This document shows, in pieces, positions 3,726-37,099 of a DNA stretch of 64,000 bases. Within the stretch, counting starts at the first letter, position 1. Each line of letters opens with the position of its first letter. The stretch comes from Bacilli bacterium (GTDB lineage: Bacteria; Bacillota_I; Bacilli_A; RF39; JBKDZI01): assembly GCA_047971215.1 (NCBI GenBank), contig JBKDZI010000025.1, positions 8,704 through 72,703 on the forward strand, written 5' to 3'. The position numbers and the translations under genes were made by a program. The notes under the pieces are model-generated. The model saw only the letters and a program-made list of their open reading frames with translations, made no database searches and had not been told where the DNA came from.

Positions 3726-4724
3726 TTGAGTGATATTCTAGCATGCGATAATACAATGTCTATCAATTTGTTGAACACATATAAAAATAAAACTGAAGAA
3801 TTATCAATTTTTTTAAATGATTTAAATCGTCAAGGCATAAAATATAATAATTTATTTGTTGATAGTGAACATACTGAAGAAATATTATCATTAATTGAAA
3901 AATTAGTATATGATGGGTTTGTACAAAAATCATACGAAGAAATTTTTAGATGTGATTGTGGCAAAGTTGATATATTAAAACAAGGCATCAATCCTAGTGT
4001 AAGTAAATTGTATTATGAAAAGAATGATGAATATTATTGTAAAGATTGTGGTACTGAATGCAAATCTTTTAAAGAGGAAGTATTAACCCTAGAATTGCCT
4101 GAAGACATTGATGACTCTTTAATAATAGTACCAACCTTCTTAAAAAATGATGCTAATCATTTAAGTAAAACTTTTAAGGGAAGCAAATTACTTGTTTCGA
4201 AACAAAGAGAAACTGGTCATCAAATAACTATTAACGATAAAACCTTTAATATAGATGTCGATTTTATTTGGACTAACTATTTTAGATTATTTGATAATGA
4301 ACAAATTATTATGCTTGCAAGCAATCATCAAACTTATCAAATGTATTTACTGAATTATTTAAACAGAATCATTGGTGGCAATGAAATTTGTTTTGTTGCT
4401 AATCCCTACATGAACCAATCTAAAACTATAAATCCATTGACTGAATACGAAAAAACAACTGACGATATTTACAAAAAATTATTTATTCTATACAACTTGA
4501 AATGGAGAAACAAAAATTGTGATTGGTCTAGAAGTGTAATAGATTACTTGAGTAATACAAGTATTACAAGAAGAAATAATTTGTATAAGGTTATCCAAGA
4601 TTGCGGAAAAAAATTTAACGAAAGCAAAATGCAAACTGATTTATATTTAGAAAGTATTTTACACAAAGGAATAAATATGCAAACAAATATTCCTGAGTCA
4701 AAAAAACTAGTAAAAAGATTATAA
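3726..4724 (+). CDS. Hypothetical protein with paired CxxC zinc-ribbon motifs
   Basis: The frame is 332 aa with CDCGK...CKDCGTEC. No synthetase HIGH or KMSKS motifs are present. It is the first gene of the island downstream of the tRNA. Confidence 0.4.
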   Translation: MSDILACDNTMSINLLNTYKNKTEELSIFLNDLNRQGIKYNNLFVDSEHTEEILSLIEKLVYDGFVQKSYEEIFRCDCGKVDILKQGINPSVSKLYYEKNDEYYCKDCGTECKSFKEEVLTLELPEDIDDSLIIVPTFLKNDANHLSKTFKGSKLLVSKQRETGHQITINDKTFNIDVDFIWTNYFRLFDNEQIIMLASNHQTYQMYLLNYLNRIIGGNEICFVANPYMNQSKTINPLTEYEKTTDDIYKKLFILYNLKWRNKNCDWSRSVIDYLSNTSITRRNNLYKVIQDCGKKFNESKMQTDLYLESILHKGINMQTNIPESKKLVKRL

Positions 4725-4756
4725 TAATAGTAAAATAAATATATGGAGATGATATA

Positions 4757-5443
4757 ATGTATAGTATATTTTTTAGTAAAATAGAACTTGGTATGGATTT
4801 AGTAATAGAACCATTAAAAAAAATCGTTAAACTTAATTCTAAAATTGCAATTTTTCCTTGGGCTTTTCCTATTGAAATAACTTCCAAAGAATTTGAAACT
4901 GATTATTTTCCAGTCAAAGGAAAAAGATACAATAAATATTTAAATGAATTAAAGAAAATTGGAATAGAAGAACAAAATGTGATTGTATGTAATCCTTATA
5001 AAGATACAAGAAAAGAATTACAAGAAATTATTAAAACTAGTGATATTTTATTACTACCTGGTGGTAATCCTGAAATGTTTTTTAAAAAAATATTACACGA
5101 CACAGAATTAATATATGATTTTAAACATTATAAAGGAATTGTAATTGGTGAAAGTGCTGGAACTGAGTTACAATTAAAAAGATATTTTATTACAAGTAAA
5201 AATAATTACTATGAATATTTTGCTGTTTATGATGGATTTGGACTAATAGACAATGAATTTTATATAGATGTCCATACACAAGATAATGAAGAATACCTTA
5301 ATGAATTGAATAAGTATTCAAAGAAAACAAAATCAAATATTTATGCAATATTTGATGATGGTGCTATAATCTATAATAGAAAAACAAATGATTTAGAACA
5401 ATTTGGTAACATTAAAATTGTAGAGCCTAACGAAGAAAGTTAG
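4757..5443 (+). CDS. Peptidase S51 family protein (dipeptidase E / cyanophycinase-like)
   Basis: The LLLPGGNPEMF motif and the GESAGTELQL serine-nucleophile motif (GxSAG) are present. Confidence 0.55.
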   Translation: MYSIFFSKIELGMDLVIEPLKKIVKLNSKIAIFPWAFPIEITSKEFETDYFPVKGKRYNKYLNELKKIGIEEQNVIVCNPYKDTRKELQEIIKTSDILLLPGGNPEMFFKKILHDTELIYDFKHYKGIVIGESAGTELQLKRYFITSKNNYYEYFAVYDGFGLIDNEFYIDVHTQDNEEYLNELNKYSKKTKSNIYAIFDDGAIIYNRKTNDLEQFGNIKIVEPNEES

Positions 5444-5737
5444 GTTTTTCTATGTGTGTGCCTATTAGTCCACTATACTGCTTTTGTTTATTCTAAATAA
5501 TTAGATTTGAAATGATACCCCCTAGTGATTATTTATCATTCAGTCGGACAGTAAATCGGACAAATATTTAATAAAGAGTATTAAAAGATAATAAGTCATG
5601 TTATTGCTATAATAGACAATCGCTAGTATATACTAGTATTTATCACTTTATAATAAACCATAATAACTAACTTTTAAAACTCTTAATCGCTAGGTCGTGT
5701 GTTCTAGTCACACAGGGAGCACCATTAAGAATTTAAG

Positions 5738-5768
5738 ATGGTATCTTTGGATATCATCTTTTTTAATG
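5738..5768 (+). terminator. Rho-independent terminator
   Basis: The hairpin agatggtatc-tttg-gatatcatct is followed by TTTTTT. Confidence 0.5.
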
Positions 5769-5865
5769 ATATAATAGTGATAGAAAACTTCTGTTTATAT
5801 AGTTAAGTTTGTGAGGTGTAAATATAACTAATGATAAAAAGTATATAGATTATATTAATGAAAAA

Positions 5866-8800
5866 ATGGTTTTATTGAATGAAAGCGTTAGGTTAAGTGG
5901 GAAACAAAGTTTATTTGATATAAATATTATAAGCGAAAACTTCTACAGAGATTTATTAGGAATAATTGAAGATGATGAACTTGCGAATGGGAATTTCTTT
6001 GAACAGAATAATGCTGTTTTTGACTTATATAGTGATAAAACAAGGAAATGTTATCAAGTAACTTCAAGAAATGATAAAGCTAAAATTGATGACACTATCG
6101 ACAGTTTTAATAATACGGAGAAGAAACTTTATAATAATTATGATTTACATTTTATAATTATTGGTAAAAAAGTTAATAATCAAAAAATTGTTAAATCTAT
6201 AAATGGTACTCTATTTGATACAAGAAAAATAATAGATTCAGATGATATTTTAACTAAAATTAAAAATTGCAGTATAGAAAAGAAAAAAGAAATATTTGAT
6301 TTTTATAGAAAATATTTTGATAATCAATTAATTAATTTAGATATAAATTTTTTTAGAAACATTTTAGAAGAAAATATTGAAAATTTAGGAGAACGATATA
6401 ATAAACTTATTAATATTTTGACCCCTTTAAATGATTCATTATCTACCTACTTTGTTAATTCAAATGACAAATATAAGTGGCTTAATTCATCAAAATTTTC
6501 TATTGAAAAACTTATTTTAAAAGGTGTTTCGCTAAATACATATAATGACGACTTTATAATTTTTAATAAGGAAGTTAGAAATAATGTCTTTTCAAATATT
6601 ATTATATATTTAAATAATGTTATTAAAAAAACGGATGTATTATTAGAAAGTTTAGATTCGAAAGATGATAAAAATTATTATACAATCAATGAATTAAATA
6701 AACAAAAAGATATTTTATTAGGTATTATTAATAACTTTAGTGTTGCCAATAAGAGTTTGTTTGTATTAAAAGGAAAAGCTGGTATGGGTAAAACACATAC
6801 TGTTACTTATTTTGTAAAAAATGAAATCGAAGAATACAATAAATACTCTTTACTAATTTTAGGACAACATATTAATCAAAGAAGTTCAATAGATTCACAA
6901 ATTATAAATAATTTGAATCTAAATATGACTTTTGATGAGTTGCTTTTTGCTTTGAATGAATATGGATATAAAAAGGATTGTACAGCATCTATAGTTATTG
7001 ACGGAATAAATGAAGGATTGGAATCTTATAATTGGAGAAACTATATTAATGGAATTGTTCAAAAGATTTCCAGATATAACTTTGTAAAAGTATTAATTAG
7101 CATACGTAGTGAATATGTTGATAGCTGTTTGCCAGATGAATTGTTCAATAATGATTTAGTATATACAAAAGAGCATCAAGGATTTAAAGAAAATTTTACT
7201 ACTATAATGACTCAAGTATTTGATTGTTACGACTTAACAATGCCTGTTTTTCCAATCATTGACCATAATTTTTCTAACCCGTTATTTGTTTTTACATTTT
7301 GCAAAATGGTAAAAAAACTAAATAAACCACTAATTATAAAAAAGTATGATGATTTCACTCAGGTCTATATTGATTATATTAATCTCGTTTCAACAAAATT
7401 ATCAGCTTTATTTCATTACGAAAAAGACGATGAAATATTGCAAAACATAATCAAAACATTCATAAACTTTATTTTAGAAAATAAAACTAATTATATTTAT
7501 AAAAAGGATTTACTAAAAATTATAACTGATTCTACTAATGGATATGGTATTGTTGCGAATGATTACCTAATTGCAATGAAAAGTGAAGGATTGATTTACA
7601 AAGATTATGCTTATGTTAAAAATGGAGAAAAAGACGATGCTTATGCTGATGTGATAAGATTTTCATTTGAACGATACGAAAAAATACTGACTGCAACATA
7701 TTTGTTAGATAAGTACAATGATGTTGAAACATTGGAAAGTGACATCAATAACGAAAATAATATTGGGGAATATTTTTCTACATCTAGATATAATATAGAT
7801 TTTGGTTTAATACAGGAGCTTTTTATTATTATACAAAATAGATTTAAAACGGAGATATATGATATTATTGATTTTTCTGGTACGGAGGGTTATTTTCAAG
7901 CCAGATTATCTTAAATTTATATTGAAAGTTTGATATGGAGAAAAGAAATATACGATGGTAAGGAACTAGAAAATTTTAGAACTTTTATTAATGATTTTGT
8001 TGCAAAAGATTTAGAAATATTTGATATATTTATAAAATTATTGATTAAAACATCTTTTATTAAAAATCATCCATTAAATTCTGATTTTTTACATAACTGG
8101 CTTTTTAATAAAAAATTAGGAGAACGAGATTATATTTGGACGATAACTATAAATAACCTATATTTGTATGACAACGAAATATTTGATATGTTGTATGAAT
8201 ATTGTATGACACAGGGAAATAAAAACCTTGATGATGAAACTATCTTGCTATTTTCACAATTATTAGGTTGGTTTTTTACATCTTCTAACAGAAAAATGAG
8301 AGACAAGTTTACAAAATGTCTCGTATCTATACTAGAAAACAAAATACATTTAATGACTAATCTCATCGATATTTTTTTGGAAGTTGATGATATGTATGTG
8401 CTTGAAAGAATATTAGCAGGGTGCTATGGAGAGATATTAAGAAGTGACATATTGGAGCCTAGCAATGTATTTTCCGACTATATTTATAATAGTTTTTTCA
8501 AAGATAAAGTATTAAATCCTAATATCCTAATTCGCCATTATTGTAAATCAATCATTGAATTTGCTACTAGAAATTTTACTATGAATTTTGATATCAATGA
8601 AATATATAATCATAAAAAAAATGAATGGTACAAACAGAAAGAAATTCCTACCTCGGAAGAAATAAAAGAAAAATATGTTTATGACTATAGAGACGAAAAA
8701 ATAAAAAGATATTATTTTTCTTCAAATACAATAGTAAGCTCAATGACTACGGAACATAGTGACCTTGGAATGTATGGAGATTTTGGTAGATATATTTTTG

Positions 8801-9966
8801 AAAGATTAGTAGACCAATGGAAACATCATTTTAGAAAGCAGCAAATATTAGCAAATATCGTAATTAAAAGAGTATTTGATATGGGATATGATGTTGAAAT
8901 GCACGGAATTTATGACTCCACCACTCACAATTATGATAAATATTCTCACAATCCTGAAAGAATCGGTAAAAAATATCAATGGCTTGCTACATACGAATTA
9001 ATTGGAAAATTATGTGATAATTTTAGTATGATAGAATATGTATATAGCGATACTCCAATTGATTTAGAAAAAAATAAGTACCTAGATAGACATTATAATG
9101 AAACAAAGAGTTTAAATAAAATTAATTACGTTATTGTAAATAAATACGATATGAATGATTCATCAATTATTAATATTGATCCATCATTATTTATTACTGT
9201 ACAAGAAAGAAAAGCAATAAAAATTGAATCTAGCAATAGCGATTGAGTTAACCAAGATATAGACGTAAAAGAAGTGATATTCAAAACTATAGATGGTGTA
9301 GAATATATATCACTCGGGAATGTTGAAGAGTGGGTTAATGACGAACATATTGCTGACTGGCACCACCCTTTTAAAAAACGTGTTGCTATAAAATCAATGT
9401 TATTCTTAACTGCAGATGCCAAAAAATTTATGAAAAAAGATTCGAGTATGCTTTGCGATTTAGGATGGAGTTCTCACCTCAATACATATATATTAGAACT
9501 CAGTAAATCAAATTATTATTATGAACAAATTGTGCCTGATGAATATTGTTCTAAGAAGGATGATGACATTGCTTTCTCATTTAGTGAATATTGTTGGGAA
9601 AATGGTGGATACGATGGTTCAATCGATGAAAGTATTAATATCTATTTCCCTTGTTTCTTCTTAATTAAACTCTTAAATTTGAAACAGAAAAATGACTATC
9701 GTTGGTATGACGAAAACGATAACCTTATATGTTTTGATACTTCATTAACAAATGGAATCAACAATTTGTTAATTGAGAAAAATATATTTTTAAAATTTAT
9801 TGAGGATAATGGCTTTTCTTTTGTTTGGGGAATGTATTACGAAAAAGACACAAATAATTGGAGAACTAGCTGGAGAAAAAATGTTACAATAGATAAACTA
9901 GATAAACATGGAAAAATTAGAGAAGTTGTTTTGGAAAAAGAAAGTTATAAATTAAGACAATTTTAA
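5866..9966 (+). pseudogene. NACHT/STAND-like P-loop NTPase, a single 1367-codon reading frame interrupted by two in-frame stop codons (TAA 7912..7914, TGA 9244..9246)
   Basis: The track ORFs 5866..7914, 7930..9246 and 9274..9966 are all in the same frame. Only one stop codon separates each pair, and the latter two lack ATG starts (TTG and GTG are the first codons). Walker A is LKGKAGMGKTHT and Walker B is SIVIDGINEG (hhhhDGxxE, NACHT-like). A roughly 300-aa N-terminal domain and roughly 750 aa of C-terminal helical region are typical of STAND sensors. Confidence 0.5.
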
Positions 9967-10207: not shown

Positions 10208-12577
10208 ATGATAGAAGAAATTAATGTTTTATCGTCTAGTGAACTAGACAAAATGGATAAATATTTTAGAGCTGTAAACTATTTATCAGTTGGACAATTG
10301 TATTTGCTTGATAATCCACTTCTTAGAGAACCTTTAAGAATAGAACATATTAAGCCATATGTTGTTGGACACTGGGGAACAATACCAGGACAAAACTTTG
10401 TTTATATGCATTTAAATAGAGTTATTAAAAAAGATAACTTGAATATGTTATTTATATCAGGGCCAGGCCATGGAGGACAAGTTGCTGTTACTAATTCATA
10501 TTTTGATGGTAGTTATAGCGAAATTTATCCACATATTACTCAAGATATGACTGGTCTTAAAAAATTGTGTAAACAATTTAGTTTTCCAGGAGGTATTTCA
10601 AGTCATGCAGCACCTGAAACTCCAGGTTCTATTAATGAAGGTGGAGAACTTGGTTATAGTCTTTCTCATGCTTATGGTGCAGTGCTCGATAATCCTGATT
10701 TAATCGTTGCTTGTGTTATAGGAGATGGAGAAGCAGAAACAGGTCCACTTGCTGGTTCTTGGTTTGCTAATAAATTAATTAATCCTGAAACCGATGGTGC
10801 TGTTTTACCAATTTTACATTTAAATGAATTTAAAATTGCTAATCCTACAATCCTTTCAAGAATAGGCGATAGTGAATTAATTAGTTATTTTAAAGGTAAT
10901 GGTTATATGCCATTTATTGTTGATTATTCAACATCAACTAATATACATGAAACTATGGCAAAAGCTATGGATACTTGTATAACTTTAATTAAAACTATAT
11001 GGAAAAATTCTCGTGAAAACAATTCAGATAAAAGACCAACATGGCCTATGATTATACTTAAAACACCAAAAGGGTGGACAGGACCTAAATTTGTTGATGA
11101 AAAAGAAATTGAAGGAACTTTTAGAGCCCATCAAGTTCCAATTCAAGTAGATAAAGATCATATTGAAAATTTAGAACTTCTTGAAGATTGGCTTAGAAGT
11201 TATAATATAGAAAATCTTTTTGATGATAATGGACGTTTGATAGAAGAACTTAGAGAACTTACTCCAAAAGATGATTTTAGAATTGGATTAAATAAGCATG
11301 CTAATGGTGGTGGTTTATTAAAACCTTTAATAAAACCTAATGTTAGTCATTATGCTGTGGAAATTGAAGCTCCAGGAAATACAATTGCTGAGGATATGAA
11401 AATTCTTGGTAATTATATTAAAGATTTAATTTCATTAAATGAAAAAACTTCTAATTATAGAATTTTTGGTCCAGATGAACTTGCTTCAAATAGACTTTAT
11501 GCAACTCTTGATGTTACTAAAAGACAATGGATGGGAGATATTAAACTTAACGATGATGGATTAGCTAAAAATGGTAGAATTATTGATTCAGTTTTATCTG
11601 AACATTTGTGTCAAGGTCTTTTAGAAGGATATCTTTTAACTGGTAGACATGGATTTATGCATAGTTATGAAGCATTTATTAGAATAATTGATTCTATGAC
11701 AAGTCAACATGCAAAGTGGCTTAAAGTTACTTCCCAGTTGCCATGGCGTCATAAAATTTCATCTTTAAATTATATTTTATCTTCTCATATTTGGCAACAA
11801 GATCATAATGGGTATACTCATCAAAATCCTGGTTTTATAAATCATGTACTTTCATTAAAACCTGAATTTACTAGAGTTTATTTACCAGCTGATGCAAATA
11901 GCTTATTATGTTGTTATGATAAAACTATAAATACTAAAAATTTAATTAATGTTATTGTGGCATCAAAACATTCACGTCCACAATGGCTTAATATGAAAGA
12001 AGCTATTAAACATTGTAATAAAGGAATTGGTATTTGGGATTTTGCAGGAAATGCAACTGGTGAGAAAGTTGATTTAGTTATGGCTTGTGCAGGTGATACG
12101 CCAACTCTTGAAACAATTGCTGCTGTTAAAATTTTAAATGAAAAATTACCAGAACTTAAAGTAAGGGTAATAAATGTTGTAGATTTAATGACACTTCATT
12201 CAAAAGAAGATCATCCAAATGGACTTTATGATTTTGAATATAATTCTTTATTTACTAAAGATAAACCTATTGTATTTGCTTTTCATGGATATAGAGAAGT
12301 TATTAAACAATTAACTTATTCTAGAGTAAATAAAAATATGAATATTCATGGATATTTAGAAGAGGGTACTATCACAACTGGATTTGATATGAGAGTGCAA
12401 AATAAATTAGATAGATTTAATTTAATTATATCAGCACTTGAAAAATTAAATTTGGATGATAATAAAGCATCTTTATTATATGATTGGTGTAAAAATAAAT
12501 TAATAGAACATAAAGAATACATTCATGAAATAGGTATTGATATGCCAGAAATTAAAAATTGGAAATTTAATGATTAA
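10208..12577 (+). CDS. xfp: Phosphoketolase (xylulose-5-phosphate/fructose-6-phosphate phosphoketolase)
   Basis: The protein is 789 aa. The signature EGGELGYSLSHAYGAVLDNPDLIVACVIGDGEAETG and the TPP-binding motifs typical of the XFP family are present. Confidence 0.9.
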   Translation: MIEEINVLSSSELDKMDKYFRAVNYLSVGQLYLLDNPLLREPLRIEHIKPYVVGHWGTIPGQNFVYMHLNRVIKKDNLNMLFISGPGHGGQVAVTNSYFDGSYSEIYPHITQDMTGLKKLCKQFSFPGGISSHAAPETPGSINEGGELGYSLSHAYGAVLDNPDLIVACVIGDGEAETGPLAGSWFANKLINPETDGAVLPILHLNEFKIANPTILSRIGDSELISYFKGNGYMPFIVDYSTSTNIHETMAKAMDTCITLIKTIWKNSRENNSDKRPTWPMIILKTPKGWTGPKFVDEKEIEGTFRAHQVPIQVDKDHIENLELLEDWLRSYNIENLFDDNGRLIEELRELTPKDDFRIGLNKHANGGGLLKPLIKPNVSHYAVEIEAPGNTIAEDMKILGNYIKDLISLNEKTSNYRIFGPDELASNRLYATLDVTKRQWMGDIKLNDDGLAKNGRIIDSVLSEHLCQGLLEGYLLTGRHGFMHSYEAFIRIIDSMTSQHAKWLKVTSQLPWRHKISSLNYILSSHIWQQDHNGYTHQNPGFINHVLSLKPEFTRVYLPADANSLLCCYDKTINTKNLINVIVASKHSRPQWLNMKEAIKHCNKGIGIWDFAGNATGEKVDLVMACAGDTPTLETIAAVKILNEKLPELKVRVINVVDLMTLHSKEDHPNGLYDFEYNSLFTKDKPIVFAFHGYREVIKQLTYSRVNKNMNIHGYLEEGTITTGFDMRVQNKLDRFNLIISALEKLNLDDNKASLLYDWCKNKLIEHKEYIHEIGIDMPEIKNWKFND

Positions 12578-33293: not shown

Positions 33294-33464
33294 ATGAATG
33301 AAAAAGTATTAGAAATCTTAAAAGAAAATAAAGAACCTATGAAGGCTGGGGAAGTAACTGAAAAATTAGGTGTTGATAAAAAAGATATAGATAAAGCAAT
33401 TAAATCTTTAGTAAAAGAAGATTTGGTTGAGAGTCCTAAAAGATGTTTTTATAGTGCTAAATAA
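33294..33464 (+). CDS. Small winged-helix-like protein (56 aa)
   Basis: The protein MNEKVLEILKENKEPMKAGEVTEKLGVDKKDIDKAIKSLVKEDLVESPKRCFYSAK follows a strong AGGAGG RBS. It is below the 60-aa cutoff of the ORF track. Confidence 0.35.
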   Translation: MNEKVLEILKENKEPMKAGEVTEKLGVDKKDIDKAIKSLVKEDLVESPKRCFYSAK

Positions 33465-33519
33465 AGTAAATATTAATTTTTATAGACAAATTTGTAATAT
33501 TATGATATGCTTAGATTGG

Positions 33520-33606
33520 ACTTATTATAGTCTAAAATTACATACTGTGTTAAAATAAGCGTAAGCTTAAAGATTTAGGAAAAGCACATGTGCTTTTCCT
33601 TTTTTA
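33520..33606 (+). ncRNA. tracrRNA-like RNA of a degenerate type II CRISPR-Cas locus
   Basis: The anti-repeat TAGTCTAAAATTACATAC (33529..33546) is perfectly complementary to 18 nt of the orphan repeat at 33995..34030. The downstream GTTAAAATAAGCGTAAGC resembles the conserved AAGTTAAAATAAGGC nexus of type II-A tracrRNAs. It ends in the intrinsic terminator AGGAAAAGCACATGTGCTTTTCCTTTTTT. Confidence 0.5.
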
Positions 33607-33667
33607 ATTGCCAAAATTGAAAACCTAAAACTGTATGTTATAATCAAATCAGATTGAGAGGAAAATT

Positions 33668-33982
33668 ATGGAAAAATATACTTTAGCATTAGATATAGGT
33701 ACAACCTCAGTTGGATGGACTGTTATAAATGACAAGTTAGAAATTTCAACATTTAATGAAAAAAATCTTTGGGGTGTAAGATTATTTGATTCTGCTTCCA
33801 CTGCAGAAGTTAGAAGAACTCAACGTGGGTCAAGACGTAGATATTTAAGACGACGTAGAAGATTGGAATTATTGCAATATTTATTTCAAATGGAAATGAA
33901 TAAAATAGATACTAATTTTTTTGATATTACTGTTGAAAATGATAAATGGCTTAAAAATAAACGCTTTATCGCATGCTTGTAA
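33668..33982 (+). pseudogene. cas9: Cas9 N-terminal stub (RuvC-I motif plus arginine-rich bridge helix, 104 aa)
   Basis: MEKYTLALDIGTTSVGWTVIND parallels Cas9 [23 protein letters not shown], with the catalytic Asp conserved. RRTQRGSRRRYLRRRRRLELLQYLFQMEMNKIDTNFF parallels [36 protein letters not shown]. The ORF stops after about 100 residues, directly before a CRISPR repeat. Confidence 0.75.
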
Positions 33983-33994
33983 GAAATTACTTGT

Positions 33995-34030
33995 TTTAGA
34001 AGTATGTAATTTTAGACTAGGTGGAAATGA
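33995..34030 (+). CRISPR. Single orphan CRISPR repeat (type II-like, GTTTTAG... start), the remnant of an array
   Basis: GTTTTAGAAGTATGTAATTTTAGACTAGGTGGAAAT is complementary to the tracrRNA anti-repeat 465 nt upstream. No convincing second repeat follows. Confidence 0.45.
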
Positions 34031-34192
34031 AATAGAAGAAATTATTTCATAAAATAAAAATTTAGAACTAAAACTTATGGCTAAGAAAATATTTCTATAT
34101 TAAAGATTTAATATGCCAAATTTTACAATAAATGTGTATACAAGAGTTTTAATACTTTATAAAATAAAGAATTATGATATATTTGTATTAAG

Positions 34193-35044
34193 GTGATATT
34201 TATGGAAAGACAATTTGAAAATGATAATAAATTAAAAGGATATCTTTCGAATCAAGCCAAAAAAAACAATATATCTTCAAACTATGCGTATACATATTTT
34301 TTTCTGCGTTGTTTTTTAGAAATATTAAATAAAAATAATGATGATTTAATAATTACTGGCAGTTTTTCCAATTTTGCTCATACTAAAAAAATATATAGAC
34401 CTATTACAGATTTGGATTTACAAACAAAAATAGAAAATCTTGATAATTTTGATAATACGGTTTCTAATTTAAATGATAATAATTTAGGAGTTAATTTTAA
34501 TGTTAAACAACGTTTTGTAACTGAAAATGGTACTATAAATTATAGAATTTTATGTAATTTTGGAAAGTTAGAAAGAATTATTAAATCTGATATTAAGATT
34601 GTAAGAAGTGCCCCATTTTCAAAAGTAATAATTCCTAAATTGTTTGATGCTGATTCGCAGATGCTTTTTAATGTTACAGAATTTGAAAAACAAATTGCAG
34701 ATAAATTGTGTATAATAATAAGAAAATTATATACTTATAAAAATTTAAACAATGAATACAAACGTTATAAAGATATATATGACATAAGTAATATAGTAAA
34801 GAATAATAAAGAAAAAATAGATTTTGACAAAGTTTTATTTTATGTAAAAAGTAGATTACAAAATGATGATTTAATTAAAGATCTTAGTAAACAAGATATT
34901 TTAAATTTACTAGACATATTAAACCAAAAATTTTTAGAAAATAATGAGAAATCTTATAATGAAGATGCTAAAAAGTTTCAATTTATGAATAAAATTGATA
35001 ATAATTTGAAAGAAGTAAAACAATCGATCAAACGAAGTTTATAG
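34193..35044 (+). CDS. Nucleotidyltransferase AbiEii/AbiGii toxin family protein (orphan)
   Basis: The length is about 283 aa. The N-terminal segment LIITGSFSNFAHTKKIYRPITDLDLQ fits the GS...R.T.DxD nucleotidyltransferase motif of DUF1814/AbiEii. No AbiEi partner is detected. Confidence 0.5.
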   Translation: MIFMERQFENDNKLKGYLSNQAKKNNISSNYAYTYFFLRCFLEILNKNNDDLIITGSFSNFAHTKKIYRPITDLDLQTKIENLDNFDNTVSNLNDNNLGVNFNVKQRFVTENGTINYRILCNFGKLERIIKSDIKIVRSAPFSKVIIPKLFDADSQMLFNVTEFEKQIADKLCIIIRKLYTYKNLNNEYKRYKDIYDISNIVKNNKEKIDFDKVLFYVKSRLQNDDLIKDLSKQDILNLLDILNQKFLENNEKSYNEDAKKFQFMNKIDNNLKEVKQSIKRSL

Positions 35045-35982: not shown

Positions 35983-36862
35983 TTAGTTTATTTTATTAAT
36001 CAGTTTTTTTAAATCTTCCTTAGTAAAATCATAATTTTTATTACAAATGTTACAATGTAGATTAGCTTTTTCATCTTCTTTTAATATTATTTTTAATTCT
36101 TTTTTACCTATTGCAATTAAAGCTTTTTCAACCTTGTTTTTATTACAATTACATTTAAACTGAACATTTTTTTCTTCAGTTATTTTCACATCAAAATCTT
36201 TAAGTACAAATTGAATTATTTCTTCAAGAGAATTATATTTCATTGTAAGAGTAGTAAATGAAGGTAAATTAGTAAGTTTATTTTCTAATTTAGTAATTAT
36301 ATCATCGTTTGTTTCAGGCATAAGTTGGATCATAAATCCACCAGAATGTTTTACAGTTAAATCATTATTAACTAAAACACCTAAAGAAATGCTACTTGGG
36401 ATTTGTTCACTTGTAGCATAATAATAAGTTAAATCTTCAGCAATCTCACCAGAAACTAATTGAATTTGTCCGCTGTATGATGTTTTAAGTCCTGTATCTC
36501 TTATTACATTTAAATAACCACTTCCAACTGCACTACTTACATCAAGTTTTCCATTTTCTTTTAAAGGTATATCTATATTATTTACATAAGGATACCCCTT
36601 AACAATACCCTTAGAATCAGCACTTACAAGCAACCCTTTTATTGGTCCATCACTAATAATATTTAATGTAAGTAAATCAGTATCATTTTTTAATAAAGAT
36701 CCCATTAAAAGACCACCAGTTAAAAGTCTTCCCCTAAAGCAGCTGTAACAACAGGTGATGTTTTATGTATTGTTCTTGATGTTTCAACAACTTCTTTAGT
36801 ATAGGCAAATGTACCAACTATACTACCATTTGCAGCAGTTATTTTAATTATTTTATCTTTCA
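35983..36862 (-). pseudogene. hslO: Redox-regulated chaperone Hsp33 (hslO) with a 1-nt frameshift
   Basis: The N-terminal 48 codons (MKDKIIKITAANGSIVGTFAYTKEVVETSRTIHKTSPVVTAALGE) are in one frame. The remaining 240 aa (LLTGGLLMGSLLKND...CNCNKNK...CNICNK zinc centre) are in another. The shift sits in an A-run (GAAGA). Confidence 0.7.
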
Positions 36863-37099
36863 TAAAAACCTCCAATAGTTTTCTCTACTATAAAACAATA
36901 ACATAATTTTTGCAATTTTTCACTATAATATAGTTATATATTATCAAAATTATAAGAGTCTTTAATTGATTTAAACACATAAAAGAGTAATAACTATAAT
37001 ATTTTTTTAATATAGCAACTAAAATTTTACATAAAGCAACTAAAAATGTGTAGTAATTATCATAATTTTAAACTATAATTTAAATATAAAGGAGAATTT

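What the first reader, a model, noticed from the sequence alone, without database searches (positions are those of the whole stretch)
33515..34035. Fossil type II CRISPR-Cas locus: tracrRNA, 104-aa Cas9 stub and one orphan repeat
A Cas9 N-terminus is unmistakable. The RuvC-I motif is LDIGTTSVGWTV, with an arginine-rich bridge helix. The ORF terminates after about 100 residues and is immediately followed by a single 36-nt GTTTTAG-type repeat. About 150 nt upstream of the stub, an RNA gene on the same strand has an 18-nt stretch (TAGTCTAAAATTACATAC) perfectly complementary to that repeat. It also carries a GTTAAAATAAGC nexus-like element and an intrinsic terminator, which makes a tracrRNA. The rest of cas9, cas1/cas2/csn2 and the array are gone. 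The layout suggests one deletion fused cas9 codon ~100 to the leader-proximal repeat. It is a clean scar of CRISPR-Cas loss. The tracrRNA:repeat pair may still be transcribed.
Basis: partly seen in the sequence, partly recalled or inferred. Interest (0 to 1): 0.8.

Follow-up and report, generated by a model that had tools for sequence, protein, structure and literature searches.

The report
Remnant of a deleted CRISPR-Cas9 locus
This is the leftover of a type II-A CRISPR-Cas9 immune system: the guide-helper RNA gene (tracrRNA), the first 98 codons of cas9 and one shortened repeat survive. It is a well-preserved example of an ordinary event, the loss of CRISPR immunity by deletion.

Summary
ORF 33668..33982 (104 aa) is a Cas9 N-terminus, with the RuvC-I motif and bridge helix (TIGR01865 E 1e-30; SpCas9 residues 3-101). 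Upstream at about 33517-33605 lies a tracrRNA gene. Its 40-nt core is identical to tracrRNAs beside intact cas9-cas1-cas2-csn2-array loci in related lineages. A 19-nt perfect anti-repeat pairs with a single repeat at 33993-34019.

- **Repeat length.** Only 27 nt of the family's 35-nt repeat (GTTTTAGAAGTATGTAATTTTAGACTGTAATAAAC) are present, not 36 nt.
- **Cas9 breakpoint.** Cas9 homology stops at codon 98, inside AATAAAC (33956-33962). That heptamer equals the last 7 nt of the family repeat and lies exactly one spacer length (30 nt) upstream of the retained repeat.
- **Mechanism.** This points to a short-homology deletion between cas9 and the 3' end of a repeat or repeat-like leader element.
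- **What is missing.** No other cas genes or arrays occur in the window.
- **Assembly.** An independent assembly reproduces both junctions.

Degraded type II loci are well known, so interest is low.

The parts
33483..33511 (+). Putative tracrRNA promoter: -35 TAGACA, 17-nt spacer, TG-extended -10 TATGCT.
   Evidence: Promoter scan gives 9/12 with TG. It aligns with the TGATATAAT extended -10 boxes of L029 and L031 and the TTGACA/TAATAT boxes of L002. The -10 is weaker here, TATGCT against TATAAT.
33517..33605 (+). tracrRNA gene. The 5' end is inferred from the promoter. It contains the anti-repeat (33522-33556), the nexus hairpin AAGC-GUAA-GCUU (33557-33568) and a terminator hairpin plus U-tract (33577-33605).
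   Evidence: A 40-nt invariant core is shared with the tracrRNAs of L029, L031/L032 and L002. The terminator stem has 5 pairs with compensatory changes, and the nexus stem is invariant. The cofold shows a 7-bp lower stem, a bulge and a 19-bp upper stem. There is no Rfam hit.
33528..33546 (+). Anti-repeat core. It is perfectly complementary to the retained repeat.
   Evidence: Inverted repeat I3, 19 nt, 100% complementary. Duplex energy is -27.6 kcal/mol against -12.5 +/- 2.5 for 500 shuffled repeats.
33617..33644 (+). cas9 promoter: TTGAAA, 16 nt, TG-TATAAT. The RBS GAGAGG follows at 33656-33661.
   Evidence: Best promoter-like site in the region, 11/12 with TG. The RBS and ATG are read directly.
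33668..33982 (+). Cas9 stub ORF of 104 aa. Codons 1-98 (33668-33961) are Cas9: RuvC-I with the catalytic Asp in LDIGT, the arginine-rich bridge helix and the start of REC1. Codons 99-104 (RFIACL) and the stop are read from non-cas9 sequence.
   Evidence: Family and structure matches. It is 73% identical to P0002/L029 and 65% to P0003/L031. The alignment with relatives ends after WLKNK.
33956..33962 (+). Junction 1. AATAAAC is shared by cas9 (codons N96-K97-K98 plus one base) and by the 3' end of the family repeat, so it is the proposed short homology used for the deletion.
   Evidence: L029 cas9 has AATAAAC at the homologous codon 97. The L031/L032 repeat ends ...TGTAATAAAC. The heptamer occurs about 3.3e-4 per nt in the window and 1-2 times per related cas9.
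33963..33992 (+). A 30-nt segment, GCTTTATCGCATGCTTGTAAGAAATTACTT. It is either the last spacer or the leader end.
   Evidence: For a spacer: the length equals the 30-31 nt spacers of L032 and L002, and its GC of 0.33 equals the L032 spacer mean, against 0.13 and 0.27 for leader ends. For a leader: its last 10 nt match the conserved leader end TAAATTACAG at 7/10 in register. No protospacer was found.
33993..34019 (+). Single truncated CRISPR repeat: nt 1-27 of a 35-nt type II-A repeat.
   Evidence: It is identical to the L031/L032 consensus at nt 1-26. Position 27 is A, which co-varies with T in the window's own anti-repeat. Then it diverges, GGTGGAAA against TAATAAAC. The window tracrRNA would form a 25-bp upper stem with the full-length consensus, so the ancestral repeat was longer.
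34020..34192 (+). Sequence beyond junction 2. It is unrelated to any part of the intact loci and leads into an AbiEii-family gene (34202..35044).
   Evidence: blastn of the whole L031 locus finds no further match here. AbiEii is called from PF08843 at E 1.7e-8 and PADLOC at 4.7e-11. No terminator-like site lies between the stub and this gene.

Best explanation
The region is the non-functional remnant of a type II-A CRISPR-Cas9 locus in the chromosome of an uncultured, low-GC member of the Bacilli.

The ancestral order was tracrRNA, cas9, cas1, cas2, csn2, leader, array. A deletion of at least about 6 kb removed everything from cas9 codon 99 to a point exactly 30 nt upstream of one repeat. The left breakpoint lies in the heptamer AATAAAC. 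That heptamer is native to cas9 at this codon and is also the 3' end of the family's repeat. The most likely mechanism (inferred) is illegitimate recombination or replication slippage between these two short direct homologies.

The simplest version needs one event. It joins cas9 to the end of the penultimate repeat and leaves the last spacer plus a terminal repeat whose 3' end was already degenerate. The alternative joins cas9 to a repeat-like element in the leader and needs a second deletion that clipped repeat 1 after nt 27.

What remains cannot confer immunity, because there is no REC lobe, HNH, RuvC-II/III or PI domain and there are no adaptation genes. The tracrRNA promoter and terminator, the cas9 promoter, the RBS and the start codon are all intact. 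The tracrRNA and a stub mRNA carrying the spacer-repeat in its 3' part could therefore still be made and could pair with each other. That is inferred, not shown.
For: - **Cas9 identity of the stub:**
- **Homologous tracrRNA next to intact loci:** the core is invariant, the terminator stem shows compensatory changes, and three compensatory repeat:anti-repeat changes occur at repeat positions 17, 21 and 27.
- **Relatives are type II-A:** Cas1 TIGR03639 at 2e-83, Cas2, and Csn2 by PADLOC at 1e-13.
- **Rest of the locus is absent from the window:**
- **Breakpoint mapping:** the cas9 alignment runs through ...AATAAAC in both the window and L029. The repeat ends in AATAAAC, and the gap to the retained repeat is exactly 30 nt, the spacer length.
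- **Truncation of the repeat:** the retained copy matches the consensus for 26-27 nt only, while the window's anti-repeat extends 6 nt further.
- **Precedent for a 3'-diverged terminal repeat:** L034 shows this in the same family.
- **Not an assembler artefact:** the Logan assembly of SRR30067258 is identical over 11,243 nt except for 1 mismatch, and covers both junctions.
- **Chromosomal context:** neighbours include RluA, a DEAD-box helicase, Hsp33, an ABC transporter, AddAB and Mur ligases.
Against: - No genome of the same lineage with an intact locus at this site could be found. The closest DEAD-box helicase is only 50% identical, so the ancestral state is inferred from different genera.
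- Which repeat survives is unresolved. The 30-nt segment ends AAATTACTT, resembling the conserved leader end AAATTACAG (7/10 in register). Only 1 of 75 real spacers does as well.
- The leaders of L031 and L034 carry a repeat-like GTATGT..AAC element about 30 nt upstream of repeat 1. That element could equally have supplied the short homology.
- The stub shows no frameshift, no internal stop and no clear excess of unique substitutions: 8 against 1-7 in relatives, with dN/dS of 0.09-0.27 against 0.12-0.13 and synonymous sites saturated. Neutral decay has not been demonstrated.
- Expression was not tested.
Confidence: 0.88

Rival explanations
1. The retained repeat is the leader-proximal one, and the 30 nt before it are the end of the leader. 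A first deletion joined cas9 codon 98 to the leader. A second event removed the rest of the array, including the last 8 nt of repeat 1.
For: - The best blastn match of the window's repeat region is the leader-repeat junction of L031: 35 nt at 94%, against 26-27 nt for internal repeats.
- AAATTAC sits at -9..-3 in the same register as the leader end TAAATTACAG, which is conserved in L002, L031/L032 and L034.
- The leaders of L031 and L034 have ...GATAAC or ...TAAAAC about 28-30 nt upstream of repeat 1. That could give the same short homology and the same 30-nt distance.
Against: - It needs two independent deletions.
- The first 20 nt of the segment are 45% GC and do not start with the A-run seen in the L031 and L034 leaders. 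Overall GC of 0.33 equals the spacer mean, not the leader ends at 0.13-0.27.
- The last two leader bases, AG, are TT here.
- One ordinary spacer in L032 ends AAATTACTA, so the motif can occur in spacers.
- A repeat with an intact 5' 25-27 nt and an unrelated 3' end is what the terminal repeat of L034 looks like.
Confidence: 0.38
2. The module is retained for a function rather than being debris. One option is that the tracrRNA and the one spacer-repeat unit serve a Cas9 encoded elsewhere in the genome. Another is that tracrRNA pairing with the repeat in the stub transcript regulates read-through into the downstream AbiEii gene. A third is that the 104-aa RuvC-I and bridge-helix peptide binds the RNA duplex.
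For: - Both promoters, the RBS, the start codon, the terminator and the 40-nt tracrRNA core are intact.
- The stub has no frameshift or stop and no clear excess of substitutions.
- No terminator lies between the stub-repeat and AbiEii on the same strand.
Against: - No second cas9 or array occurs in 64 kb.
- The repeat has lost its 3' end.
- The tracrRNA -10 box is weakened relative to all relatives.
- The arrangement is seen in only one organism, so there is no evidence of conservation.
- Intact signals are equally expected after a recent deletion.
Confidence: 0.07
3. It is a mobile-element-borne anti-CRISPR RNA device: a solitary repeat (Racr-like) or a viral sgRNA or tracrRNA decoy that sequesters Cas9.
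For: Solitary repeats and tracrRNA-derived RNAs in phages are known to inhibit Cas9 (bioRxiv 10.64898/2026.06.01.729453, read). The retained pieces are exactly the Cas9-binding RNA parts.
Against: - The pieces keep the native order and spacing of a chromosomal locus, including the cas9 promoter and 98 cas9 codons.
- The neighbours are housekeeping genes, not phage or acr genes.
- The repeat was not found in viral contigs.
Confidence: 0.02
4. It is an assembly artefact: a chimeric MAG contig or a collapsed assembly produced a false deletion.
For: The source is a metagenome-assembled genome, and CRISPR repeats are hard to assemble.
Against: - An independent Logan assembly of run SRR30067258 gives the same sequence through both junctions, with 1 mismatch in 11,243 nt.
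- The junction homology is only 7 nt, too short to mislead k-mer assemblers.
- Flanking genes are continuous on both sides.
Confidence: 0.02

Closest known systems
Degraded or incomplete type II CRISPR-Cas loci, such as those catalogued in Mollicutes (PMC6882279: at least 8 of 21 systems degraded; a putative tracrRNA and array without cas genes in Spiroplasma syrphidicola)
   Same: Part of a type II locus persists after the effector and adaptation genes are lost, in a small, low-GC genome of the Bacilli/Mollicutes radiation. The tracrRNA can outlast cas9.
   Different: Here the breakpoints are mapped to the nucleotide. The loss is by clean deletion at a 7-nt homology rather than by scattered frameshifts. 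Only one truncated repeat remains.
Intact type II-A loci of the same repeat/tracrRNA family (L031/L032, L002, L034, L029: uncultured Erysipelotrichaceae-like and Bacilli metagenomic contigs)
   Same: They share the tracrRNA core ...ACATACTGTGTTAAAATAAGCGTAAGCTT..., the repeat 5' half GTTTTAGARGTATGTARTTT, and a Cas9 N-terminus 65-73% identical. In L029, L031/L032 and L002 the tracrRNA lies immediately upstream of cas9 on the same strand.
   Different: The relatives have a cas9 of 1405-1429 aa, cas1, cas2, a leader ending TAAATTACAG and 5-50 repeats; csn2 was confirmed in L002 and L031. The window has codons 1-98 and 27 nt of one repeat. In L034 the tracrRNA is on the opposite strand.
S. pyogenes type II-A tracrRNA:crRNA module (lower stem, bulge, upper stem, nexus, terminator hairpins; from established knowledge of Cas9 guide RNA architecture)
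   Same: The lower stem GUUUUAG:UUAAAAU has G-U ends. A bulge, a long upper stem, AAG-initiated nexus hairpin and an intrinsic terminator follow.
   Different: There is no sequence similarity beyond the lower stem and the start of the nexus, and no Rfam match. Only one 3' hairpin is present.
Phage-encoded solitary repeats (Racrs) and viral sgRNAs
   Same: An isolated repeat and a tracrRNA-type RNA exist without a cognate Cas9 gene nearby.
   Different: This locus is not on a mobile element and has no acr neighbours. It keeps cas9 5' coding sequence in its native arrangement, so it is a deletion product rather than an exapted decoy.

Membership tests
Cas9 (type II effector, TIGR01865) | N-terminal RuvC-I motif with catalytic Asp, followed by an arginine-rich bridge helix. 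| tested here: met
   TIGR01865 at E 1.1e-30 over model positions 1-87. PF16593 at E 1.8e-9. The alignment to SpCas9 residues 3-101 includes D10 in LDIGT.
Cas9 (type II effector, TIGR01865) | REC lobe, HNH, RuvC-II/III and PAM-interacting domains, giving a full-length protein of about 1000-1400 aa. | tested here: not met
   The ORF stops at 104 aa. tblastn with L031 Cas9 finds only residues 1-109 in the window. The stub is therefore a gene fragment, not a Cas9 enzyme.
tracrRNA | An anti-repeat complementary to the cognate CRISPR repeat, with lower stem, bulge and upper stem. | tested here: met
   A 19-nt perfect match plus a 7-bp lower stem. Three compensatory changes between repeat and anti-repeat across lineages were read.
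tracrRNA | Location next to cas9 with its own promoter and an intrinsic terminator, plus nexus and 3' hairpin. | tested here: met
   The position matches L029, L031 and L002.
tracrRNA | Match to a curated tracrRNA covariance model in Rfam. | tested here: not met
   No hit at the gathering threshold, nor at E<=10 in 33400-34150. From my own knowledge, tracrRNAs are very diverse and curated models do not cover many lineages, so I do not treat the lack of a hit as evidence against the assignment.
tracrRNA | Expression, RNase III co-processing with pre-crRNA, and binding by Cas9. | not testable with these tools
   This needs RNA-seq or northern blots. No Cas9 is present to bind it.
CRISPR array | Two or more direct repeats separated by unique spacers. 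| tested here: not met
   There is one copy only in 64 kb, and it is truncated to 27 of 35 nt.
Type II-A CRISPR-Cas | cas9-cas1-cas2-csn2 operon. | tested here: not met
   The genes are absent from the window. They are present in relatives of the same tracrRNA/repeat family, with Csn2 by PADLOC at E 1e-13 and 2e-10. The subtype of the ancestor is therefore inferred.
Racr / viral sgRNA anti-CRISPR RNAs | Encoded on a phage, prophage or plasmid, usually beside acr or aca genes. | tested here: not met
   The neighbours are housekeeping genes. The repeat is absent from viral contigs.

The most novel reading that the evidence does not exclude
The tracrRNA, the Cas9 N-terminal peptide and the spacer-repeat are kept because they do something. 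One example: the tracrRNA pairs with the repeat in the 3' part of the stub transcript, creating an RNase III site or roadblock that sets read-through from the strong cas9 promoter into the orphan AbiEii toxin gene 180 nt downstream. Another: they serve a Cas9 encoded elsewhere in the genome.
Probability: 0.05. Interest if true: 0.6.

Novelty: new member of a known kind. Interest (0 to 1): 0.2.

Why it matters
It gives a nucleotide-resolution example of how a Cas9 system is lost. A single short homology (AATAAAC), shared by chance between the cas9 coding sequence and the 3' end of the CRISPR repeat, appears to have served as the deletion point. It also shows that the tracrRNA gene and the cas9 promoter can outlast the enzyme.

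For annotation, the 104-aa 'Cas9' in the public record should be read as a pseudogene fragment. The tracrRNA/repeat family defined here, from five lineages, is not in Rfam. None of this changes current understanding of CRISPR biology.

Tried and rejected
- **Rfam scans.** The whole window at the gathering threshold and the locus at E<=10 gave no tracrRNA hit.
- **Word-indexed protein search with the stub.** It found only the stub itself. The exhaustive HMMER search was needed to find P0002 and P0003.
- **Metagenome scan for the tracrRNA core.** It gave 0 hits.
- **Metagenome scan for a degenerate repeat pattern.** It gave 3 loci, L026-L028. L027 and L028 are single matches inside coding sequence. 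About 1-10 chance matches are expected for a 22-nt AT-rich pattern in roughly 1e12 nt (my estimate), so I treated them as chance. L026 is discussed under things noticed in passing.
- **Searches for the repeat and the 30-mer.** Viral contigs, GenBank phages, the window and all fetched loci gave no protospacer and no self-target.
- **Synteny test through the flanking DEAD-box helicase.** The closest homologue is only 50% identical, so no near relative exists for comparing the site.
- **Exact-sequence look-ups.** The 56-aa wHTH protein and the AbiEii protein returned only the same sample or nothing.
- **dN/dS and unique-substitution counts on the 98 codons.** Synonymous sites are saturated, so the test is uninformative about time since truncation.
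- **Alternative genetic code.** I considered TGA=Trp as an explanation for split genes and rejected it. TGA ends 9 of 44 long ORFs, and the stub ends in TAA.

Full report
**What is in the sequence**

The window is AT-rich (24% GC) chromosomal DNA. The public record calls the organism 'MAG: Bacilli bacterium', and the contig is 75,971 bp.

Between a DEAD-box helicase gene plus a 56-aa winged-helix gene (upstream) and an AbiEii-family gene (downstream) lies a compact set of elements, all on the + strand:
- a promoter-like site at 33483-33511;
- an RNA gene ending in the only terminator-like hairpin of the region, 33577-33600 plus a T-run;
- a near-consensus promoter at 33617-33644 (TTGAAA, 16 nt, TG-TATAAT);
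- an RBS and a 104-codon ORF at 33668..33982;
- a single GTTTTAG-type repeat at 33993-34019.

**Checking the observation**

The ORF is a Cas9 N-terminus. It matches TIGR01865 at E 1.1e-30 over model positions 1-87 of 1070 and the Pfam bridge-helix domain. It also matches PADLOC Cas9 models and aligns to SpCas9 residues 3-101, including the catalytic Asp of RuvC-I.

The RNA gene contains a 19-nt stretch (33528-33546) perfectly complementary to 34001-34019. The repeat string is unique in the window and never appears in shuffles. There is no dispersed family of the 18-mer.

The predicted duplex has the canonical type II shape:
- a 7-bp lower stem, GUUUUAG:UUAAAAU;
- a bulge;
- a 19-bp upper stem;
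- a nexus hairpin, AAGC-GUAA-GCUU;
- a terminator hairpin.

Its energy is -27.6 kcal/mol, against -12.5 +/- 2.5 for shuffled repeats.

**Comparison with intact relatives**

An exhaustive HMMER search found two close Cas9 relatives: P0002 (73% identical over the stub) and P0003 (65%, 1412 aa). Their contigs, plus one genome hit (L002, 68%) and one more distant relative (L034), give four further lineages of the same system.

Each has a tracrRNA gene next to cas9. It lies immediately upstream on the same strand in L029, L031/L032 and L002, and on the opposite strand in L034. The tracrRNAs of L029, L031 and L002 share a 40-nt core identical to the window's.

Across these lineages the terminator stem keeps pairing through compensatory changes at 5 of 8 pairs. 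Repeat positions 17, 21 and 27 co-vary with their anti-repeat partners (read).

L031/L032 and L002 carry cas9, cas1 (TIGR03639, 2e-83), cas2, a Csn2 homologue (PADLOC, 1e-13 and 2e-10) and an array, so they are type II-A. L034 has the same gene order, but cas1 and the csn2-position gene are each split. The L029 contig ends inside cas9.

The repeat of L031/L032 is GTTTTAGAAGTATGTAATTTTAGACTGTAATAAAC, 35 nt, with spacers of 30-31 nt. This settles the identity of the window's RNA as a tracrRNA, although Rfam has no matching model.

**What is missing**

tblastn with Cas9, Cas1, Cas2 and Csn2 of L031, and blastn with the whole L031 locus, find only 33522-33899 and the repeat in the window. Tandem Repeats Finder finds no array.

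**The junctions**

The cas9 alignment runs through ...TGG CTT AAA AAT AAA C in the window and ...TGG TTA AAG AAT AAA C in L029, then stops. The heptamer AATAAAC (33956-33962) is therefore native to cas9. It is also the last 7 nt of the family repeat.

It lies exactly 30 nt, one spacer length, upstream of the retained repeat. The heptamer occurs only about 3.3e-4 times per nt in the window and once or twice per related cas9. Finding it at the breakpoint and at the spacer distance is unlikely to be chance. I infer a short-homology deletion between cas9 and the 3' end of a repeat or repeat-like element.

The retained repeat matches the consensus for 26 nt. Position 27 is A, which matches the window's own anti-repeat. 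The last 8 nt are unrelated. The window's anti-repeat would pair over 25 bp with the full consensus repeat. The ancestral repeat was therefore full length, and this copy is either truncated or is a 3'-degenerate terminal repeat.

**Which repeat survived?**

Two readings remain.

*Terminal repeat, one event.*
- The 30-mer has spacer length and spacer-like GC: 0.33, equal to the L032 spacer mean, while leader ends are 0.13 and 0.27.
- The terminal repeat of L034 shows the same pattern, with an intact 5' 25 nt and an unrelated 3' end.
- A single deletion suffices.

*Leader-proximal repeat, two events.*
- The 30-mer ends GAAATTACTT, which matches the conserved leader end TAAATTACAG at 7 of 10 positions in register. 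Only 1 of 75 real spacers matches as well.
- The leaders of L031 and L034 contain a repeat-like GTATGT..AAC element about 28-30 nt upstream of repeat 1. This could give the same homology and distance.

I put these at roughly 55:40. No protospacer or self-target was found for the 30-mer.

**Is it real?**

The Logan assembly of SRR30067258 is identical over 11,243 nt apart from one distant mismatch, and it covers both junctions. It probably derives from the same sample, so only assembler artefacts are excluded, not population heterogeneity.

**Function**

The stub lacks every domain needed for RNA-guided cleavage, and the adaptation genes are gone, so the locus cannot provide immunity. Both promoters, the RBS, the start codon and the terminator are intact. 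The tracrRNA -10 box is weaker than in all relatives, TATGCT against TATAAT. No terminator separates the stub from the repeat or from AbiEii. Transcription and tracrRNA:repeat pairing are therefore plausible but untested.

The stub has no frameshift or internal stop and no clear excess of lineage-specific substitutions. Synonymous sites are saturated, so this says only that most divergence predates the deletion.

**Comparison with known cases and verdict**

Degraded type II systems are common. A survey of Mollicutes reports degradation in at least 8 of 21 systems, and a tracrRNA with an array but no cas genes in one Spiroplasma (PMC6882279).

Phage-borne solitary repeats and tracrRNA-derived RNAs act as anti-CRISPRs (bioRxiv 10.64898/2026.06.01.729453). 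This locus is chromosomal, keeps the native arrangement and has no phage or acr neighbours.

The finding is a correct and neatly resolved instance of a known phenomenon. It is a new member of a known kind and of low general interest.

Noticed in passing
L026 (OEIG01000172.1) 8796-8816, 9651-9671, 10357-10377, 10854-10874, minus strand: There are four intergenic copies (one with 2 mismatches) of GTTTTAGAAGTATGTAATTTT, the first 21 nt of this CRISPR repeat family. Two copies continue AAAAA(A)GGTCTCA, and one lies 22 nt upstream of a tRNA-Leu gene. The contig carries a DNA methyltransferase and several ORFs matching PHROG families. This may be a chance hit on a multi-copy promoter-like motif, or solitary-repeat decoys against this Cas9 family.
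   Followed up: partly
L031 16363-16660 vs L032 7170-8770: This is the same locus in two samples, 99.5% identical. L031 has 5 repeats and L032 has 25. L031 lacks 20 internal spacer-repeat units, a repeat-repeat recombination collapse in the same family.
   Followed up: partly
L034 (Logan SRR12919262_4875) 4561-6608 and 6663-6960: A relative is caught in mid-decay. cas9 is intact, but cas1 is split (97 + 174 aa) and the gene in the csn2 position is split (68 + 135 aa). The tracrRNA is on the opposite strand. The array repeats carry many point changes, and the terminal repeat's last 10 nt are unrelated to the consensus.
   Followed up: partly
Leaders: L031 16325-16362, L034 6623-6662, L002 8165-8210: The array leaders contain a short repeat-like element: GTATGTGATAAC, GTATGTAAAAC or GTATGTAGATACC. 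In L031 and L034 it lies about 28-30 nt upstream of repeat 1, and in L002 about 42 nt. It follows each lineage's own repeat variant and could pair with the tracrRNA anti-repeat. All three leaders end in TAAATTACAG.
   Followed up: no
window 35983..36875, minus strand: The Hsp33 gene is split by a frameshift. The N-terminal 50 aa (36720..36875) and the remaining 240 aa (35983..36705) lie in different frames. This is either a pseudogene or a sequencing error.
   Followed up: partly
window 34202..35044 (+): An AbiEii-family nucleotidyltransferase toxin gene has no adjacent AbiEi antitoxin gene. It lies directly downstream of the CRISPR remnant on the same strand, with no terminator between them.
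   Followed up: no
L029 2975-2995: The closest related cas9 (P0002) is split into 777 + 626 aa at a poly-A run. This is either a frameshift pseudogene or a homopolymer sequencing error.
   Followed up: no
L032 7595-7624: Spacer 7, TTCCATGTATAATTCCCTTGTAAATTACTA, shares CTTGTAA...ATTACT with the window's 30-mer (a 3-nt indel apart) and ends like the leader (AAATTAC). This may be coincidence, or the two may be homologous protospacers.
   Followed up: no
Protein hits P0005, P0008, P0083, P0087, P0094 and others: Many Cas9 N-terminal fragments of 97-140 aa with non-Cas9 tails exist in public protein sets. Truncated cas9 5' ends are therefore common in metagenomic data. How many are contig-end artefacts and how many are real relics was not examined.
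   Followed up: no
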